Assembly (NCBI GenBank): GCA_947565425.1
Contig: CANOFW010000011.1
Span: 15,484-79,483, forward strand
Direction of reading: 5' to 3'
DNA length: 64,000 nt
DNA from: an uncultured Lachnospiraceae bacterium
GTDB lineage: Bacteria > Bacillota > Clostridia > Lachnospirales > Lachnospiraceae
The number at the start of each line of letters is the position of its first letter. Positions within the stretch are counted from its first letter, which is position 1. The translations under genes and the position numbers were made by a program. Positions 50,097 through 64,000 of this stretch are shown in pieces. The notes under the pieces were generated by a model. The model did not search any database, was not told where the DNA came from, and saw only the letters and a program-made list of their open reading frames with translations.

Positions 50097-50836
50097 GAAA
50101 TATGTTAAAAAATATACAATCAGTTATTTTTGATTTAGATGGAACACTCGTGGATTCCATGTGGCTCTGGCATGACATTGACGTAGAGTTTTTGGAACAG
50201 CGAGGACTTACCCTACCCGAAACTTATCAGCATGATATTGAAGGCATGAGTTTTACGGAAACAGCAATTTATACGAAAGAATTGTTTCATCTGAAGGAAA
50301 GTGTGGAAGAATTAAAATCCATTTGGAATCAGATGGCATTTGACAAATACAGTCATGAAGTGTATTTCAAACCTGGGGCGGAAAAATTTCTGCAATATTG
50401 CAGGGAGCAAGGGATTACTCTTGGCATTGCCACCAGCAATTCCAAGGAGCTGGTGCAAGCGGTAACCACAGCCTTACAATTTGATGCTCTTATTGATGTA
50501 GTGGTAACAGCCTGTGAAGTGGCGCACGGCAAACCTGCGCCGGATGTTTATCTGGAAGCGGCAAAGAAGTTATCGGCCAAACCGGAAGAATGCCTGGTAT
50601 TTGAAGATGTGCCTATGGGAATTCGTGCTGGGAAGAATGCAGGCATGCGCGTATGTGCTGTGGACGATCCATTTTCCGCCCATCAGGAAAACGAAAAACG
50701 CCGACTGGCGGATTACTATATTTCAAGCTATGAACAAGTACTGGACAATACATATGAAATAAGGAGCTGCTATGGAGGGAACGTTTTTGCCAATCTGCCG
50801 CGAGGATATGGCAGCGCAGGGAATTGCACAGTTTGA
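50093..50836 (+). CDS. HAD family phosphatase
   Basis: FDLDGTLVDS, ATS, GKPAPDVY, FEDVPMG. Confidence 0.9.
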   Translation: MRNMLKNIQSVIFDLDGTLVDSMWLWHDIDVEFLEQRGLTLPETYQHDIEGMSFTETAIYTKELFHLKESVEELKSIWNQMAFDKYSHEVYFKPGAEKFLQYCREQGITLGIATSNSKELVQAVTTALQFDALIDVVVTACEVAHGKPAPDVYLEAAKKLSAKPEECLVFEDVPMGIRAGKNAGMRVCAVDDPFSAHQENEKRRLADYYISSYEQVLDNTYEIRSCYGGNVFANLPRGYGSAGNCTV

Positions 50837-52712
50837 TTTCGTATATGTCATCGGGGACGCCTATGTGGACCATCCTTCGTTTGGACATGCAATTATCAGT
50901 CGTCTTTTGCAGGCGCACGGATATTCGGTGGGCATCATTTCGCAGCCGGACTGGAAGCAAAAGGAGAGCATTGCCATCTACGGTGAGCCGCGCCTGGCGT
51001 TCTTAATCAGCGCCGGAAATATGGATTCTATGGTCAACCATTACAGCGTATCGAAGCGGCTGCGTGAGAAAGATTCTTTTACTGCGGGCGGGGTCATGGG
51101 CAAGCGGCCAGATTATGCCACTGTCGTTTATGGAAATCTAATCCGGCAAACCTACAAAAAAACACCGATACTGATTGGCGGTGTGGAGGCGAGCCTGCGC
51201 CGACTGGCGCATTACGATTATTGGAGTAATAAGGTAAAACGTTCCATTCTTTTAGACAGCGGAGCAGATATTCTCATGTATGGCATGGGGGAACGCAGTA
51301 TCCTTGCTTTGGCGGAGGCGTTAGACAGCGGGCTTGCCGTGTCCGACATCACATATGTACCTGGGACAGTATACAAGACCCAGAAAAAAGAAGACATTTA
51401 CGACGCCGTGTTTCTGCCGGGATTTATGCAGGTTAAGGAGGACAAGTCCGCTTACGCCCGCAGTTTCTATCTGCAATATCAGAATACAGATGCCTTCAAT
51501 GGCAGAAGGCTTGTCGAGGCTTATCCGAATAAGATTTATGTGGTGCAGAATCCTCCGGCAGAACCTTTGAGTCAGATGGAAATGGATGATGTTTATGCGT
51601 TGCCATATATGCGTACCTACCATCCTTCGTATGAGCCGCTTGGCGGCGTCCCTGCCATTGAGGAAGTCAGATTCAGTCTTGCCAGCAACCGCGGATGTTT
51701 TGGCGGATGCAGCTTTTGTGCGTTGACTTTCCACCAGGGACGGATTATTCAGTCCCGAAGTCATGCGTCCATCGTAAAAGAGGCGGAACTTCTGACTAAG
51801 GAGCCGGACTTCAAAGGCTATATTCATGATGTGGGCGGCCCTACTGCAAATTTCCGTTATCCGGCATGTGACAAGCAGTTGCAAAAAGGGGTCTGTCCCG
51901 ACAAGCAGTGTTTGTTTCCCCGCCCCTGTAAGAATTTAAAGGCAGATCATGAGGATTATTTGAAATTATTGCGTAAATTGCGGAACATTCCCGGTGTAAA
52001 AAAGGTGTTTATCCGCTCCGGCATCCGCTTTGATTATGTTTTAGCGGATAAGGACCGCACTTTTCTGCGGGAATTGTGTCAATATCATGTCAGCGGTCAG
52101 TTAAAAGTGGCGCCAGAGCATATTTCTGATAAGGTGCTAGAGAAAATGGGCAAACCGAGTGCTGCTGTTTACCACCAATTTGTCCGGGAATATGAGAAGA
52201 TGAATGAGAGATTAGGCAAGAAACAGTACCTTGTGCCTTACCTGATGTCCTCACATCCGGGCTCCACGCTGCAAGAAGCGGTGGAACTGGCGGAATTCTT
52301 GCGGGATCTCGGCTATATGCCGCAGCAGGTGCAGGATTTTTACCCTACGCCCTCCACGATTTCCACCTGCATGTACTACACGGGCTTAGATCCGCGTACC
52401 ATGGCGCCGGTGTATGTTGCGCACAACCCGCATGAAAAGGCCATGCAGCGCGCCTTAATTCAGTATCGGGAACCTAAGAATTATCATCTGGTAAAAGAAG
52501 CCCTCTTAAAAATAGGACGCGCAGATTTGATTGGCTTCGAGCAGAAGTGTCTGATTCCCCCCAGGGAAATGGCGGACAGAGGAAGCGGAAGGCGAAAGCC
52601 GAATACGAAACATCATTCGCATACGAATACAACACCAAAAATGAAAGGTAAATCACATAAAAAAGGAAAGATGGACGTTAAGAAAACTGTGAGCAAGAAG
52701 AGGAGAAGGTAA
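50772..52712 (+). CDS. YgiQ family radical SAM protein
   Basis: GDAYVDHPSFG, GGVEASLRR, RGCFGGCSFC, DVGGPTAN, QVQDFYPTP. Confidence 0.92.
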   Translation: MEGTFLPICREDMAAQGIAQFDFVYVIGDAYVDHPSFGHAIISRLLQAHGYSVGIISQPDWKQKESIAIYGEPRLAFLISAGNMDSMVNHYSVSKRLREKDSFTAGGVMGKRPDYATVVYGNLIRQTYKKTPILIGGVEASLRRLAHYDYWSNKVKRSILLDSGADILMYGMGERSILALAEALDSGLAVSDITYVPGTVYKTQKKEDIYDAVFLPGFMQVKEDKSAYARSFYLQYQNTDAFNGRRLVEAYPNKIYVVQNPPAEPLSQMEMDDVYALPYMRTYHPSYEPLGGVPAIEEVRFSLASNRGCFGGCSFCALTFHQGRIIQSRSHASIVKEAELLTKEPDFKGYIHDVGGPTANFRYPACDKQLQKGVCPDKQCLFPRPCKNLKADHEDYLKLLRKLRNIPGVKKVFIRSGIRFDYVLADKDRTFLRELCQYHVSGQLKVAPEHISDKVLEKMGKPSAAVYHQFVREYEKMNERLGKKQYLVPYLMSSHPGSTLQEAVELAEFLRDLGYMPQQVQDFYPTPSTISTCMYYTGLDPRTMAPVYVAHNPHEKAMQRALIQYREPKNYHLVKEALLKIGRADLIGFEQKCLIPPREMADRGSGRRKPNTKHHSHTNTTPKMKGKSHKKGKMDVKKTVSKKRRR

Positions 52713-59492: not shown

Positions 59493-59628
59493 CAAGAAAG
59501 TATCGAACTTCTTTCTAAGAAGTGGGGTTAAGCGATTTTCTTTATGAAAACTTCACAGAATCTAAAAAATGTGCATTTTTTCCAGCAAATGCTACTAAAA
59601 TAGTACAAAGCTATTGAGGAGCATGACT

Positions 59629-59973
59629 ATGGTAAAATCTATCGAAGAAAGCGCAAGAGAGCGTAGAAATTATGTGGAACAGGCGCGTGCTGCTTTCGGA
59701 ACTCACGAACAAGGGTATGGCTCGGAACCCGCAAGGCAAGAAGCATCCGCAGGAACTTCCACATTCGGTATTCGGCTTGTCATTGCCATTCTTTTATTTG
59801 CCGGTTTTGTGTACTGTGACCAGGAAAAAATTACATATCAGGGGATTAACGCCCAGGATGTGATTGAACAAGTGAAGTGGAATCCTTTGCCCACGGAAGA
59901 ACTGGAAAAGCTTTTCGGGGACATCAGTGTTTCCACTGGGAATGAAAGAACTGAAAATAAGGCACAAAAGTAA
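59629..59973 (+). CDS. Small single-TM hypothetical protein
   Basis: RBS GAGGAG; TM segment FGIRLVIAILLFAGFVYC. Confidence 0.65.
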   Translation: MVKSIEESARERRNYVEQARAAFGTHEQGYGSEPARQEASAGTSTFGIRLVIAILLFAGFVYCDQEKITYQGINAQDVIEQVKWNPLPTEELEKLFGDISVSTGNERTENKAQK

Positions 59974-59986
59974 AGGAGCACACTGT

Positions 59987-61849
59987 ATGAACAAGCTTGC
60001 TTTAAGCGACGAGATTCTAATGTCTGTCGATAAGCCGGCCCGATATATCGGCAATGAAATAAATATCGTGAGGAAGAACCCGCAAGATGTGGCAATCCGC
60101 TTTGCCATGTGTTTTCCGGATGTCTATGAGATTGGCATGTCTCATCTTGGCATCCAAATTTTATACGATATGTTTAACCAGAGGGAAGACGTTTATTGCG
60201 AACGCGTCTATTCTCCTTGGGTTGATTTGCATAAGATTTTAAAGGAACAAAATATCCCTCTGTTTACGTTGGAGACGCAATCTCCGGTGAAAGACATGGA
60301 TTTCTTAGGAATCACGATTCAATATGAAATGTGCTATACGAATATTTTACAAATTCTGGACTTGAGCAAGATTCCGCTGCTGGCAAACGAGCGCACAGAA
60401 GAAGATCCGATTGTTATTGGCGGCGGACCATGTACCTACAATCCAGAACCGTTGGCGGATTTCTTTGACTTATTTTATATTGGAGAGGGAGAGACACAAT
60501 ATGACGCACTGTTTGATCTCTACAAATCCATGCGCGCACAGGGAGGGACAAGGCAGGAATTTCTTCGTGCCGTCTGTAAATTGCCGGGAATTTATGTACC
60601 GTCCCTGTACGAAGTAAGTTATCAGGAGGACGGCACGATTGCCTCATTTACACCCCAATACGCAGACGTTCCTCCGACCATCTTAAAAGAAGTCCAGATG
60701 GATTTAACGAATACGGTGTATCCGCGTAAACCGCTGGTTCCTTATATTAAGGTAACCCAGGACCGCGTTGTATTGGAGATTCAGCGCGGTTGTATCCGCG
60801 GGTGCCGGTTTTGCCAGGCAGGTATGATCTACCGCCCCACCAGAGAGCGGGATGTTAATATGCTCAAAGATTGTGCACGGGAAATGCTGGAAAGCTCTGG
60901 GCATGAAGAAATATCTTTAAGTTCTTTAAGTTCCAGCGATTACAGCCAACTTCCTGAACTCATCAACTATCTTATTGGGTTTAAGGAGAAGGGGGTCAAT
61001 ATTTCTCTGCCTTCCTTGCGAATTGACGCATTCTCTTTAGATGTTATGAGTAAAGTGCAGGATATCCGCAAAAGTAGTCTCACTTTTGCACCGGAGGCTG
61101 GCACACAACGTCTGCGGGACGTAATCAATAAAGGGCTGACCGAAGAAATCATTCTCAATGGCGCAGGTTTGGCGTTCGCCGGAGGATGGCAGAAGGTAAA
61201 GCTCTATTTCATGTTGGGACTTCCTACCGAAACAGAAGACGACATGAAGGAAATCCCCAGGCTTGCTGATAAAGTGGCGCGGCGTTACTACGAAATTCCC
61301 AAGGAACAGCGAAACGGCAAGTGCCAGATTACCATCAGCACTTCCTTTTTCGTGCCGAAACCATTTACGCCCTTCCAATGGGCATCCATGCAGCCCAAGG
61401 AAGAATATCTTCGCCGTGCCCGAATTGTCAATGAGGAGATGAAAGAACAGTTAAATCGTAAGAGCCTAAAATACAATTGGCATGAAGCTGATGTGACTGT
61501 CTTAGAGGGCGTCTTTGCCAGAGGTGACCGCCGCGTGGGACAGGTTTTACGCAAAGCATATGAAAAGGGCTGTATTTTCGACTCCTGGAGTGAATTTTTT
61601 GACAATGGAAAATGGATGGAAGCCTTTCAGGAATGTGGGGTGTCCATTGATTTTTATAATTTGCGCACGCGGGAATTGGATGAAATTCTTCCATGGGACT
61701 TCATTGACTGCGGCGTGACAAAATCATTTTTAAAACGAGAATGGCAACATGCCTTGGAGGAAAAAGTAACCCCTAATTGCAAAATGCAATGTAACGGCTG
61801 CGGCGCAACAAAGTTTGAAGGAGGTGTCTGCCTTGAACATCAGAATTAA
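59987..61849 (+). CDS. TIGR03960-like B12-binding radical SAM protein
   Basis: KPARYIGNE, FPDVYEIGMSHLG, GGPCTYNPEP, RGCIRGCRFC, APEAGTQRLR, FVPKPFTPFQW, C-terminal CxxxCxxCG. Confidence 0.88.
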   Translation: MNKLALSDEILMSVDKPARYIGNEINIVRKNPQDVAIRFAMCFPDVYEIGMSHLGIQILYDMFNQREDVYCERVYSPWVDLHKILKEQNIPLFTLETQSPVKDMDFLGITIQYEMCYTNILQILDLSKIPLLANERTEEDPIVIGGGPCTYNPEPLADFFDLFYIGEGETQYDALFDLYKSMRAQGGTRQEFLRAVCKLPGIYVPSLYEVSYQEDGTIASFTPQYADVPPTILKEVQMDLTNTVYPRKPLVPYIKVTQDRVVLEIQRGCIRGCRFCQAGMIYRPTRERDVNMLKDCAREMLESSGHEEISLSSLSSSDYSQLPELINYLIGFKEKGVNISLPSLRIDAFSLDVMSKVQDIRKSSLTFAPEAGTQRLRDVINKGLTEEIILNGAGLAFAGGWQKVKLYFMLGLPTETEDDMKEIPRLADKVARRYYEIPKEQRNGKCQITISTSFFVPKPFTPFQWASMQPKEEYLRRARIVNEEMKEQLNRKSLKYNWHEADVTVLEGVFARGDRRVGQVLRKAYEKGCIFDSWSEFFDNGKWMEAFQECGVSIDFYNLRTRELDEILPWDFIDCGVTKSFLKREWQHALEEKVTPNCKMQCNGCGATKFEGGVCLEHQN

Positions 61850-62717
61850 GTTTCAGAAATATGGCGTGATGAAGTTCATCGGGCACCTGGATATGATGCG
61901 GTATTTTCAAAAAGCAATTCGCCGCGCCGATATTGACATCGCCTACTCGGAAGGGTACAGCCCTCACCAGATTATGTCTTTTGCAGCGCCGCTGGGCGTA
62001 GGCGTTACCAGTGATGGTGAGTATCTTGATATTGAAGTCAAGTCATCAAAGAGCAGCAAAGCGTCTATGCAATCTTTAAATGAGACGATGGCAGAGGGAA
62101 TAACCATTCTTGAATACCGCAAGCTGCCTGACACAGCGAAAACCTCCATGTCATTAGTAGCTGCCGCGGATTACCTGGTATATCAAAAGCCGGGCTATTG
62201 TCCGCTTGCTGATACGTCCACACAGCTTCAAGCGAAAGTGGAAGCGTTTTATGAAGGACAGTCTCATATTTATATTACGAAACAAACAAAAAAACGTGAA
62301 ATTGAGATGGACTTAAAGCCCTTAATCTATGAGATGAAGGCTATAAATCTGAACCAGAAACAGACATTAGCGCGTATAGGCGTCAAAAACCCGCAAATTC
62401 TGGCTGCTTGCCAGGAAGAAACAACAGAGGACACACCGGCATTATTTCTAAAGCTCTGTACTGGAAGTGCGGACAATGTGAAACCGGAATTGGTATTAGA
62501 AGCGTTTTGCCGTTTTCATGGGATTTCCTATGAACCATCAGGTTCCTATATTCATCGCCTGGAAGTTTATGCACGGGCGGATGACATTCCGGTAAAAGGC
62601 GAACAGGAACGTCAGGTTTATGCTGATAACCTCAACCATCAGCGGGAACTTTGCCAACAGCAAGGAATCGAGTTTCCCAAATTCCTTGCATTGGGGGAAC
62701 TTGGAATAGATATCTGA
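61833..62717 (+). CDS. TIGR03936-like radical SAM-linked protein (DUF2344)
   Basis: KFIGHLD, YSEGYSPHQIMSFAAPLGVG..SDGEY; TTG start after GGAGG, overlapping the radical SAM gene. Confidence 0.85.
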   Translation: MNIRIKFQKYGVMKFIGHLDMMRYFQKAIRRADIDIAYSEGYSPHQIMSFAAPLGVGVTSDGEYLDIEVKSSKSSKASMQSLNETMAEGITILEYRKLPDTAKTSMSLVAAADYLVYQKPGYCPLADTSTQLQAKVEAFYEGQSHIYITKQTKKREIEMDLKPLIYEMKAINLNQKQTLARIGVKNPQILAACQEETTEDTPALFLKLCTGSADNVKPELVLEAFCRFHGISYEPSGSYIHRLEVYARADDIPVKGEQERQVYADNLNHQRELCQQQGIEFPKFLALGELGIDI

Positions 62718-62816
62718 GCAGACGATACCATCCGGATTTCGGAATCAGATATGGAAGCGGTCTACCATCTAAACACAAGGCAGATATCAATGCATTGACT
62801 ATGCTCAGGGGGAATT

Positions 62817-64000
62817 ATGGAAAAGACACTGCTGATAACCAACCTTACCTGGAACCAAAAAGAATATCTTGCAACGGCGCTTTACCATGATAAAAAATTG
62901 CTGGAAGTATCACTGGAACTGCAAGATAAACAGACCATCCTTCACAATATTTATGTAGGCAGGGTAAAAAATATTGTCAAGAATCTCAATGCGGCATTTA
63001 TTGAGATTGCGCCAGGCGTTTCCTGCTATTACGACCTGGATGAACTCAAGAATCCTCTATATGTAAAAAAAATTAACTGTCCCCGCATGGTTCAAGGGGA
63101 TGAGGTGGTTGTTCAGGTAGTGCGTGAGCGCAGCAAAGGGAAACCGCCGAAAGTCAGCACCAATCTGAATTTTTCTGGAAAATATCTCGTCCTGACAAGT
63201 GAAAGCACTACGCTTAGTATTTCGCGGAAATTAGATGCAGAAACCAAAAAAAGTCTCAAAGAATCCCTGAATTTCATACGAGAACCGGATTGTGGCTTTA
63301 TTATACGCACAAATGCTGCACAGGCTTCTGCGGAGGAGATAAAAGAGGAATACCAAATACTTCGTAAAGAATACTTGAACTTAAAGGAAAACGCTGTACA
63401 CCGTACCGTATTTAGCTGTCTGAAAAAGCAGATCCCAGAATACCTTCACATTTTAAGGGATATGAAAACAGGACAGCTTGATTCAATCGTTACTGATGAT
63501 GCGGAAATTCTTGGGCAAATCCGGCAGTACTTAGAGCAGTTTCCCAAACAAGAGTATATACTAAAATTTTATGAGGATCCTATGATTAGCCTTAATAAGA
63601 TTTATAGCCTTGACACGCGGCTTAGTGAAGCATTGCGTGAGCGGGTTTGGCTGAAATCAGGGGGTTACCTCATTATTCAGCCTACAGAAGCTTTGACTGT
63701 TATTGACGTTAATTCTGGTAAGAGCATTGCCAAGAAGAAAGCCCAGGAACATTACCTTAAGATTAACCTGGAAGCAGCAGCGGAAATTGCCTGGCAGATG
63801 CGCCTTCGCAATATCTCAGGGATCATTATTGTAGATTTTATCGACATGAAATCCGCTGAGGACAATGAACTTTTACTGCGGACTCTGAGAGCAAGTGTTC
63901 GCGAGGACAGTGTCCCCGTGCAGATTGTTGATATGACAAAACTCCATCTTGTGGAGATTACGCGCAAGAAAGTTAAAAAGTCTTTGGCGGAGCAGTTAAT
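62817..64000 (+). CDS. rng: Ribonuclease E/G family, 3' end cut by the window edge
   Basis: NIYVGRVKNIV..LNAAFIEI (S1 domain), GYLIIQPTEALTVIDVNSG, LRNISGIIIVDFIDM, LVEITRKK. Confidence 0.92.
   Translation, partial: MEKTLLITNLTWNQKEYLATALYHDKKLLEVSLELQDKQTILHNIYVGRVKNIVKNLNAAFIEIAPGVSCYYDLDELKNPLYVKKINCPRMVQGDEVVVQVVRERSKGKPPKVSTNLNFSGKYLVLTSESTTLSISRKLDAETKKSLKESLNFIREPDCGFIIRTNAAQASAEEIKEEYQILRKEYLNLKENAVHRTVFSCLKKQIPEYLHILRDMKTGQLDSIVTDDAEILGQIRQYLEQFPKQEYILKFYEDPMISLNKIYSLDTRLSEALRERVWLKSGGYLIIQPTEALTVIDVNSGKSIAKKKAQEHYLKINLEAAAEIAWQMRLRNISGIIIVDFIDMKSAEDNELLLRTLRASVREDSVPVQIVDMTKLHLVEITRKKVKKSLAEQL

What the first reader, a model, noticed from the sequence alone, without database searches (positions are those of the whole stretch)
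59987..64000. B12-radical SAM plus TruA-like partner plus RNase E/G: an orphan RNA-acting system
Seen: a translationally coupled pair (overlap 61833-61849). The first gene has an N-terminal cobalamin-binding-like region, CxxxCxxC and a C-terminal CxxxCxxC. The partner's SFAAPLGVGVTSDGEY segment resembles the TruA active-site region (xSRTDxGVHAxGQ) without the catalytic Asp. RNase E/G follows directly. Established: these families are usually adjacent or fused and, to my knowledge, uncharacterised. Inference: the partner is an RNA-binding adaptor that delivers tRNA or rRNA to a cobalamin-dependent radical enzyme for an unknown modification. The organism also appears to handle cobalt (cbiK at the window start).
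Basis: inference. Interest (0 to 1): 0.55.

Follow-up and report, generated by a model that had tools for sequence, protein, structure and literature searches.

The report
Orphan radical-SAM enzyme with dead TruA-like partner
Two overlapping genes encode a catalogued but unstudied radical-SAM enzyme and a partner shaped like a tRNA pseudouridine synthase without its catalytic residue; they head an RNase G and ribosome-assembly operon, so they probably modify an RNA, and this copy is an ordinary family member.

Summary
Gene 1 (59987-61849) is a full-length TIGR03960 radical SAM protein. It has two invariant CxxxCxxC motifs and an N-terminal B12-domain-like fold. Gene 2 (61833-62717) overlaps it by 17 nt and is TIGR03936/DUF2344. 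An Rne/Rng ribonuclease gene follows after 99 nt.

The partner's AlphaFold model (pLDDT 94) matches only pseudouridine synthases, TruA/Pus1/Pus3/Pus10 first (Z 13.2). Gly55 sits where TruA has its catalytic Asp.

In 151 genomes of the phylum, 125 hold both the partner and RNase E/G. The two are adjacent in 124 of these. In 11 of the 13 genomes that have the pair but no RNase E/G, the pair sits directly on rplU-(prp)-rpmA-obg.

The link is therefore to ribosome biogenesis. RNase E/G is the closest neighbour but is dispensable.

RNA binding, cobalamin use and the reaction remain untested. The closest solved structure is the B12-dependent methylase MgmA (Z 20.1), but relatives that do not use B12 score nearly as well.

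No paper on these families was found.

This scan has already flagged the same pair on other DNA: a word search returned 194 findings naming these families, and seven of the eight follow-ups shown read it the same way. This copy is an ordinary member of a known orphan family.

The parts
59614..59973 (+). Small conserved ORF (119 aa, one predicted membrane helix). It ends 13 nt before the radical SAM gene. No family assigned. Whether it belongs to the unit is uncertain.
   Evidence: Translation. No Pfam or NCBIfam hit. A homologue sits in the same position in about 35 of 80 Lachnospiraceae loci.
59987..61849 (+). TIGR03960-family radical SAM protein, 620 aa: N-terminal Rossmann-like (B12-domain-like) module, radical SAM core and a C-terminal extension.
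   Evidence: TIGR03960 at 1051.7 bits (cut-off 462.3); Pfam Radical_SAM_N2 plus Radical_SAM. AlphaFold model pLDDT 89.7. Closest structure is MgmA 9ccb_A: Z 20.1, rmsd 3.2, 370 residues aligned.
60791..60814 (+). CxxxCxxC (C269, C273, C276): site of the radical SAM [4Fe-4S] cluster.
   Evidence: Read from the sequence. Invariant in 46 of 46 sequences.
61778..61801 (+). Second CxxxCxxC (C598, C602, C605), 15 residues from the C-terminus. Probably an auxiliary Fe-S cluster. In fused homologues it lies at the junction with the TruA-like domain.
   Evidence: Sequence. Invariant in 46 of 46 sequences. There is no conserved Cys in the N-terminal domain. That it binds a cluster is inferred.
61819..61823 (+). 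GGAGG ribosome-binding site of the partner gene, inside the end of the radical SAM gene.
   Evidence: Sequence read; 9-nt spacing to TTG at 61833.
61833..62717 (+). TIGR03936/DUF2344 'radical SAM-associated' protein, 294 aa: a complete pseudouridine-synthase fold of the TruA type without the catalytic Asp.
   Evidence: TIGR03936 at 204.2 bits (cut-off 71.9); PF10105 at 195.2 bits. Model pLDDT 94.3. TruA 8q70_A: Z 13.2, rmsd 3.6, 202 residues aligned; the top 8 hits are all TruA/Pus1/Pus3/Pus10. Foldseek: PUS3 E 1.2e-7, TruA E 1.5e-7.
61977..62024 (+). Loop and strand that correspond to the TruA active-site motif GRTDAGVHA. Gly55 (61995-61997) takes the place of the catalytic Asp. P53, G57, S60 and Y64 are invariant.
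   Evidence: hhalign; column counts; invariant columns.
62817..64000 (+). Rne/Rng-family ribonuclease. The full gene is 396 aa and ends 7 nt past the window. It is a short form that stops just before the position of the zinc-link motif.
   Evidence: PF10150 at 288 bits; TIGR00757 at 301.2 bits for the full protein (below the 325.95 cut-off). The VIDVNSG and DFIDM acidic motifs are present.

Best explanation
Shown:
- This is an ordinary split-gene member of the TIGR03960/TIGR03936 pair. It is translationally coupled and stands at the head of the cluster pair-rng-(lineage-specific insert)-rplU-prp-rpmA-obg-yhbY-nadD-yqeK.
- The first protein is a radical SAM enzyme with the canonical cluster motif, a second invariant CxxxCxxC at its C-terminus, and an N-terminal domain with the fold that class B (cobalamin) radical SAM enzymes use.
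- The second protein has a complete TruA-type pseudouridine-synthase fold. It has Gly where the catalytic Asp should be, so it cannot make pseudouridine by the known mechanism. The surrounding cleft holds the family's most conserved residues.

Inferred:
- The dead synthase keeps the ancestral job of gripping an RNA and presenting one nucleotide in its cleft.
- The radical SAM protein, docked to it (fused to it in other lineages), abstracts a hydrogen with 5'-deoxyadenosyl radical and installs a still-unknown modification. This is most likely a C-methylation if cobalamin is bound.
- The second cluster would sit at the interface between the two proteins.
- From the gene company, the most likely substrate is rRNA in an assembling large subunit, or another stable RNA that RNase E/G matures.
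For: - Family membership.
- Coupling.
- Downstream operon.
- Fold of the partner.
- Sequence-level link to TruA and Asp-to-Gly replacement. Pfam treats DUF2344 as part of the pseudouridine-synthase domain (PMC7955657).
- Natural fusions of 863-924 aa with both domains.
- Housekeeping spread: TIGR03936 is over its cut-off in 138 of 151 genomes of the phylum.
- Synteny: 124 of the 125 genomes with both genes have RNase E/G directly downstream on the same strand. The one exception is at a contig end.
- Without RNase E/G, the pair abuts rplU-rpmA-obg in 11 of 13 genomes.
- All 80 Lachnospiraceae loci keep the order.
- Radical SAM fold: MgmA Z 20.1; then CysS, MiaB, AprD4, TokK, OxsB, RimO, TsrM at Z 16.4-14.4.
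- Six invariant Cys.
- Precedent for a cobalamin radical SAM methylase acting on 23S rRNA: RlmX of E. coli, as cited in PMC13602947.
Against: - There is no experimental datum on any member.
- Both proteins are acidic: partner family median pI 5.6, enzyme pI 5.2. That is not what a free-standing RNA binder usually looks like.
- The closest solved structure, MgmA, methylates a protein. RimO has an RNA-type domain yet modifies ribosomal protein S12.
- Cobalamin binding is not established. The Pfam B12-binding score is below threshold, and AprD4, MiaB and RimO share the two-domain fold without B12.
- Gene order shows co-inheritance, not a shared substrate.
- 9 genomes have RNase E/G without the pair and 13 have the pair without RNase E/G, so neither needs the other.
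Confidence: 0.55

Rival explanations
1. The enzyme modifies a protein of the translation apparatus (a ribosomal protein such as L21 or L27, or an assembly factor). The TruA-like partner only docks the enzyme on rRNA of the assembling particle, as the TRAM domain may do for RimO.
For: The closest structure is MgmA, a protein glutamine C-methylase (Z 20.1). RimO (Z 14.6) is a radical SAM enzyme with an RNA-type domain that acts on protein S12. The pair sits directly on rplU-(prp)-rpmA where RNase E/G is missing.
Against: The cleft that corresponds to the nucleotide-binding active site of TruA is the best-conserved part of the partner. That fits a bound nucleotide better than mere docking. No unexplained modification of L21 or L27 is known to me (from memory).
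Confidence: 0.15
2. The pair is mainly a non-modifying helper of RNA processing or ribosome assembly: an RNA chaperone or an RNase E/G specificity or regulatory factor. Its radical chemistry is secondary or regulatory, for example Fe-S clusters acting as redox or iron sensors.
For: RNase E/G lies immediately downstream in 124 of 125 genomes. Earlier notes of this scan (e1-756551, e1-975599, not tested here) report lineages that lost the Cys motifs yet kept the gene.
Against: In this phylum all six Cys and the SAM-core residues are invariant, which argues for retained catalysis. 13 genomes keep the pair without RNase E/G.
Confidence: 0.12
3. The product is not RNA or protein but a small molecule or lipid. 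The position next to rng and rplU is inherited gene order without functional meaning.
For: Many class B radical SAM enzymes (CysS, TokK, OxsB, AprD4) act on small molecules. Operon order in Clostridia around rplU-obg is ancient and also holds unrelated genes such as nadD and yqeK.
Against: Every solved protein that resembles the partner above Z 6.7 is an RNA pseudouridine synthase. No biosynthetic genes accompany the pair. It is near-universal in the phylum, like a housekeeping gene.
Confidence: 0.08

Closest known systems
NCBIfam TIGR03960 (B12-binding radical SAM protein) with TIGR03936 / Pfam DUF2344 (radical SAM-associated protein)
   Same: Both proteins score far above the curated cut-offs over full length. 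They are adjacent and overlapping, as the family names imply. Fused forms exist elsewhere.
   Different: Nothing of note. The partner is somewhat longer (294 aa against about 225-260) through a variable insert near residues 170-205 and a C-terminal helix.
TruA / Pus1 / Pus3 pseudouridine synthases (e.g. E. coli TruA 1DJ0, 2NQP; 8Q70)
   Same: Same fold over about 200 residues (Z 13.2-12.6). There is detectable sequence kinship around the active-site loop.
   Different: Gly replaces the catalytic Asp and is never Asp in 86 homologues. About 10% identity. No match to the TruA HMM. Always paired with a radical SAM enzyme.
MgmA, cobalamin-dependent radical SAM glutamine C-methyltransferase of methyl-coenzyme M reductase (PDB 9CCB; TIGR04014)
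   Same: Best structural match (Z 20.1, 370 residues, 19% identity) and best sequence match in the PDB (E 5.1e-8). It has the same N-terminal Rossmann-like domain plus radical SAM core.
   Different: MgmA is archaeal, acts on a protein, is about 200 residues shorter, and has no C-terminal CxxxCxxC and no pseudouridine-synthase partner. Our protein scores 49 bits against the TIGR04014 cut-off of 360.
MiaB / MtaB / RimO methylthiotransferases
   Same: Same three-part logic: flavodoxin-like N-domain, radical SAM core, then an RNA-type recognition module, with two Fe-S clusters (Z 15.6 and 14.6).
   Different: In those enzymes the auxiliary cluster is held by three Cys in the N-domain and the RNA module is a TRAM domain. 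Here the N-domain has no conserved Cys, the second motif is C-terminal, and the module is a dead pseudouridine synthase.
RlmX, cobalamin-dependent radical SAM methyltransferase that 5'(S)-C-methylates D2449 and Cm2498 of E. coli 23S rRNA under anaerobiosis (Ishiguro et al. 2026, Mol Cell 86:78, as cited in PMC13602947)
   Same: It shows that a cobalamin radical SAM enzyme can act on rRNA of the peptidyl-transferase centre. That is the kind of reaction proposed here.
   Different: It is a different family. E. coli has neither TIGR03960 nor TIGR03936 (controls). I could not read the primary paper and did not see which E. coli gene RlmX is.

Membership tests
TIGR03960 radical SAM family | Full-length match to the family HMM above the curated cut-off | tested here: met
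   1051.7 bits against 462.3; residues 8-615 on profile positions 1-605.
TIGR03960 radical SAM family | CxxxCxxC radical SAM cluster motif | tested here: met
   C269/C273/C276, invariant in 46 of 46 sequences.
TIGR03960 radical SAM family | Adjacent or fused to a TIGR03936 protein | tested here: met
   17-nt overlap with the TIGR03936 gene. Fusions occur in relatives.
TIGR03936 / DUF2344 | Match to the family HMMs above their cut-offs | tested here: met
   TIGR03936 at 204.2 bits against 71.9; PF10105 at 195.2 against 23.8.
Pseudouridine synthases, TruA family | Pseudouridine-synthase fold | tested here: met
   Z 13.2, rmsd 3.6, 202 residues aligned to TruA 8q70_A. All hits above Z 6.7 are pseudouridine synthases. 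Foldseek E 1.5e-7.
Pseudouridine synthases, TruA family | Catalytic Asp in the conserved loop (GRTDxGVH) | tested here: not met
   Gly55 aligns with the Asp. The column reads G76/S7/A2/P1 of 86.
Pseudouridine synthases, TruA family | Match to the TruA HMM (TIGR00071) | tested here: not met
   The NCBIfam scan of the partner at E up to 0.01 lists only TIGR03936.
Class B (cobalamin-dependent) radical SAM enzymes | N-terminal Rossmann-like cobalamin-binding domain | tested here: inconclusive
   The fold fits: MgmA, CysS, TokK, OxsB, TsrM at Z 20.1-14.4 and the MetH B12 domain at Z 6.8. Pfam B12-binding gives only 16.5 bits against 32.1. AprD4, MiaB and RimO share the fold without B12.
Class B (cobalamin-dependent) radical SAM enzymes | Bound cobalamin and methyl transfer | not testable with these tools
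   This needs purified protein. Genome hints are mixed: no B12 riboswitch, cobS or cbiB in this assembly, but a MetH-type corrinoid enzyme is present.
MiaB/RimO methylthiotransferases | Three-Cys auxiliary cluster in the N-terminal UPF0004 domain, and a TRAM domain | tested here: not met
   No conserved Cys before residue 269. TIGR00089 gives 17.6 bits against 251. No TRAM domain in the Pfam scan.
Rne/Rng ribonucleases | RNase_E_G catalytic domain with its acidic motifs | tested here: met
   PF10150 at 288 bits over profile positions 2-270 of 270. VIDVNSG and DFIDM are read.
Rne/Rng ribonucleases | Full-length subfamily score and the zinc-link (CPxCxGxG) region | tested here: not met
   TIGR00757 gives 301.2 bits against 325.95. 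The protein ends at profile position 390 of 415, before the zinc-link position. Where the zinc-link lies is from memory.

The most novel reading that the evidence does not exclude
A catalytically dead pseudouridine synthase serves as the nucleotide-presenting module of a two-cluster radical SAM enzyme. Together they make a so far undescribed modification of rRNA (or another stable RNA) during large-subunit maturation in Clostridia, Thermotoga, cyanobacteria and others. This would be a new class of RNA-modifying enzyme that is core to most anaerobic Firmicutes.
Probability: 0.4. Interest if true: 0.75.

Novelty: new member of a known kind. Interest (0 to 1): 0.4.

Why it matters
The family is catalogued but has no known reaction. 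Even so, it is present in about nine of ten genomes of this large phylum and is wired into the RNase G / L21 / L27 / Obg ribosome-biogenesis cluster. Finding its product would probably add a new RNA (or ribosome) modification. It would also give a new use for the pseudouridine-synthase fold, in organisms that dominate the gut. This particular copy adds no new feature. Its value is as one more clean, split-gene example and as a well-defined target for a knockout plus RNA mass-spectrometry experiment.

Tried and rejected
- **Sequence searches of the PDB with the partner.** Neither the single sequence nor the 86-sequence profile found a pseudouridine synthase. Only HMM cross-hits, profile-profile alignment and fold search show the link.
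- **hhalign in global mode.** It gave a meaningless 9-residue match. Local mode was used instead.
- **Reaching other phyla.** This failed in four ways:
  - Three loci with NCBI labels of other phyla (L035, L039, L081) are Lachnospiraceae-like. For the one genome tested (G151, holding L081), the 'phylum' sample matched my own phylum's.
  - The metagenome scan returned only gut Lachnospiraceae-type loci.
  - The protein atlas named only Bacillota.
  
  So adjacency across phyla was not tested here. Of 14 control genomes, only S. elongatus and T. maritima hold both families, and both also have RNase E/G.
- **A misread control.** I first took Thermus thermophilus as a holder. That signal was only the weak TruA cross-hit, and I withdrew it.
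- **B12 dependence from co-occurrence.** The riboswitch RF00174 is in 143 of 151 genomes. Of the 8 without it, 4 have the pair and 4 lack it. Three of the four that lack it are one family, so this is inconclusive.
- **Kinship with the YgiQ radical SAM protein in this window.** They share only the cluster-motif region.
- **Rfam scan of the operon.** No hit, and no L21 leader.
- **Promoter and terminator scans.** Nothing useful.
- **Literature.** Nothing on DUF2344, TIGR03960, TIGR03936, PF10105 or PF19864.


Full report
**What is there**

The window is G000 contig 11, positions 15484-79483. The closest public loci are mouse- and human-gut Lachnospiraceae.

- Gene 1 runs from an ATG at 59987, preceded by AAGGAG, to the stop at 61847-61849 (620 aa).
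- Gene 2 most likely starts at TTG 61833, 9 nt after GGAGG. That gives a 17-nt overlap with gene 1. It ends at 62717 (294 aa).
- After 99 nt an Rne/Rng ribonuclease gene starts at 62817. It ends 7 nt past the window (396 aa).
- Downstream on the same strand lie a 203-aa His/Cys-rich repeat protein with a signal-like N-terminus, then rplU, prp, rpmA, obg, yhbY, nadD and yqeK.
- Upstream is a his operon and a 119-aa membrane-type ORF.
- No terminator-like site was found on the coding strand upstream of gene 1, or from the end of the partner gene to rplU.

**Families**

Gene 1 is TIGR03960 (1051.7 bits; cut-off 462.3), with Pfam Radical_SAM_N2 and Radical_SAM. The Pfam B12-binding model reaches only 16.5 bits against a cut-off of 32.1. 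Gene 2 is TIGR03936 / DUF2344 (204.2 and 195.2 bits). Gene 3 has a full RNase_E_G domain (288 bits).

**The partner is a dead TruA-type pseudouridine synthase**

- An all-against-library HMMER search found 8505 representative clusters at E 0.001 or better.
- An alignment of 86 of them (A1) gave an AlphaFold model with pLDDT 94.3 and pTM 0.90.
- An exhaustive structural comparison with 48,161 PDB representatives put eight TruA/Pus1/Pus3/Pus10 entries on top: Z 13.2 to 11.2, with TruA 8q70_A at rmsd 3.6 over 202 residues. TruB, TruD, RsuA and RluA enzymes follow. Every hit above Z 6.7 is a pseudouridine synthase.
- Foldseek agrees: PUS3 E 1.2e-7, TruA E 1.5e-7, probability 1.00.
- The kinship also shows in sequence. 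The genome's own TruA hits the TIGR03936 profile at E 6.2e-6. The same weak cross-hit recurs in other genomes.
- A profile-profile alignment with 31 TruA sequences gives E 0.0022 over partner residues 50-245. In it the TruA motif GRTDAGVHA lies on A52-P53-L54-G55-V56-G57-V58-T59-S60, so the catalytic Asp faces Gly55.
- That column is Gly in 76, Ser in 7, Ala in 2 and Pro in 1 of 86 sequences.
- The flanking residues P53, G57, S60, Y64, together with H45, R23 and Y114, are invariant. The cleft is conserved but the nucleophile is gone.
- Pfam already treats DUF2344 as part of the pseudouridine-synthase domain (PMC7955657). This relation is therefore database knowledge, not a discovery.

**The enzyme**

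- Forty-six sequences from across the phylum (A2) share 38-86% identity with this one. They keep six Cys invariant: C269/C273/C276 and C598/C602/C605.
- No Cys is conserved in the N-terminal domain.
- The model (pLDDT 89.7, pTM 0.91) is closest to MgmA, the cobalamin-dependent glutamine C-methylase of methyl-coenzyme M reductase: Z 20.1, rmsd 3.2, 370 residues, 19% identity.
- Next come CysS (16.4), MiaB (15.6), AprD4 (15.5), TokK (15.2), OxsB (14.7), RimO (14.6) and TsrM (14.4) (Foldseek).
- This group mixes true cobalamin enzymes with enzymes that have the same two-domain build but no cobalamin. The fold allows B12 binding but does not prove it.

Genome evidence on B12 is mixed.
- The cobalamin riboswitch is found in 143 of 151 genomes of the phylum, but not in this one.
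- cobS and cbiB are not found in this 93%-complete assembly.
- The 'cbiK' at the window start is a truncated, sub-threshold match.
- Against that, the genome encodes a MetH-type corrinoid methionine synthase and two other B12-domain radical SAM proteins. It probably imports B12.

**Gene company**

I compared the coordinates by eye, without a script, for 151 genomes of the phylum.

| Pattern | Genomes |
|---|---|
| Both TIGR03936 (over cut-off) and an RNase_E_G domain | 125 |
| Pair only | 13 |
| RNase only | 9 |
| Neither | 3 |
| Fragmentary | 1 |

- In 124 of the 125, the RNase domain lies about 1-2 kb downstream on the same contig and strand.
- The one exception has the partner gene 377 nt from a contig end.
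- A scripted annotation of 40 loci showed that in 11 of the 13 RNase-less genomes the pair sits directly upstream of rplU-(prp)-rpmA-obg. One other locus ends at a contig end, and one has no L21 gene in range.
- In 16 of the 27 sampled loci with the RNase, rplU follows within range.
- All 80 Lachnospiraceae loci keep the order.
- Four genomes in the sample, and 38 database proteins of 863-924 aa, carry the two domains fused.

The stable context is thus the ribosome-biogenesis cluster. RNase E/G is the nearest neighbour but can be lost.

**Mechanism proposed**

Shown: the domain folds, the missing Asp, the two invariant Cys motifs, coupling or fusion, and the synteny.

Inferred:
- The partner grips an RNA and presents a nucleotide as pseudouridine synthases do.
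- The radical SAM protein carries out hydrogen abstraction and, if cobalamin is present, C-methylation.
- The C-terminal cluster would sit at the interface, since in fusions it directly precedes the TruA-like domain.

A cobalamin radical SAM methylase acting on 23S rRNA now has a precedent in E. coli RlmX (Ishiguro et al. 2026, as cited in PMC13602947). E. coli lacks this family, so RlmX is something else.

Caveats:
- Both proteins are acidic.
- The nearest structure acts on a protein.
- No experiment exists.

I put the RNA-modification reading at about 0.55. Rivals are a ribosomal-protein target at 0.15, a mainly non-catalytic processing or assembly helper at 0.12, and a non-RNA product at 0.08.

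**Novelty**

No paper on these families was found in the library. This copy is an ordinary member.

A word search of this scan's notes returned 194 findings naming these families, in at least 194 genomes. Seven of the eight follow-ups shown reached the same reading; the eighth was about a repeat element in the linker of a fused copy.

New here are:
- the count inside one phylum;
- the behaviour of RNase-less genomes;
- the invariance of the C-terminal motif;
- the mixed B12 evidence.

**Limits**

Noticed in passing
L002:4567-5178 (about 570 nt past the window end, between rng and rplU): A 203-aa protein with a signal-like N-terminus and five or so tandem repeats rich in His, Cys, Tyr and Lys (YRQCTVxGCxKTKKHxHxGxYYYGHS). 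It has no Pfam or NCBIfam hit. A homologue is found in only 4 of 80 related loci, so it is a recent insertion into the ribosomal operon. Possibly a secreted metal-binding protein.
   Followed up: partly
window 59614-59973 (+): A 119-aa ORF with one hydrophobic helix, ending 13 nt before the radical SAM gene. A homologue holds the same position in about 35 of 80 Lachnospiraceae loci. No family assigned.
   Followed up: partly
window 62817-64000 and L002:3301-4491: The RNase E/G here is a short form (396 aa). It ends just before where the zinc-link motif lies in E. coli RNase E/G. Open frames of 393-434 aa recur in about a dozen genomes of the phylum, against 560-580 aa in most. The zinc-link position is from memory.
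   Followed up: partly
window 50772-52712 (+), YgiQ-family radical SAM gene between pseudouridine-synthase genes: [quoted passage not shown] Which E. coli gene this is was not visible to me. YgiQ is an obvious candidate (my guess), and that would bear on the separate finding about this gene.
   Followed up: partly
G000 whole assembly: No cobalamin riboswitch, cobS or cbiB was found in the 93%-complete assembly. A CbiK-like ORF, a MetH-type corrinoid methionine synthase (L234:1951-4374, minus strand) and two B12-domain radical SAM genes are present. This looks like a B12 user that neither makes nor remodels corrinoids and lacks the usual riboswitch control.
   Followed up: partly
G000:C24:44968-45675 and G000:C48:1958-2668: The genome carries two truA paralogues. 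Both are above the TIGR00071 cut-off.
   Followed up: no
L035, L039, L081: Contigs labelled Paludibacteraceae, Thermoguttaceae and Senegalimassilia in NCBI carry Lachnospiraceae-type copies of this locus (51-57% identity). The genome holding L081 (G151) drew a 'phylum' sample that matched my own phylum's; the other two were not tested that way. Probably mis-binned or mislabelled assemblies.
   Followed up: partly
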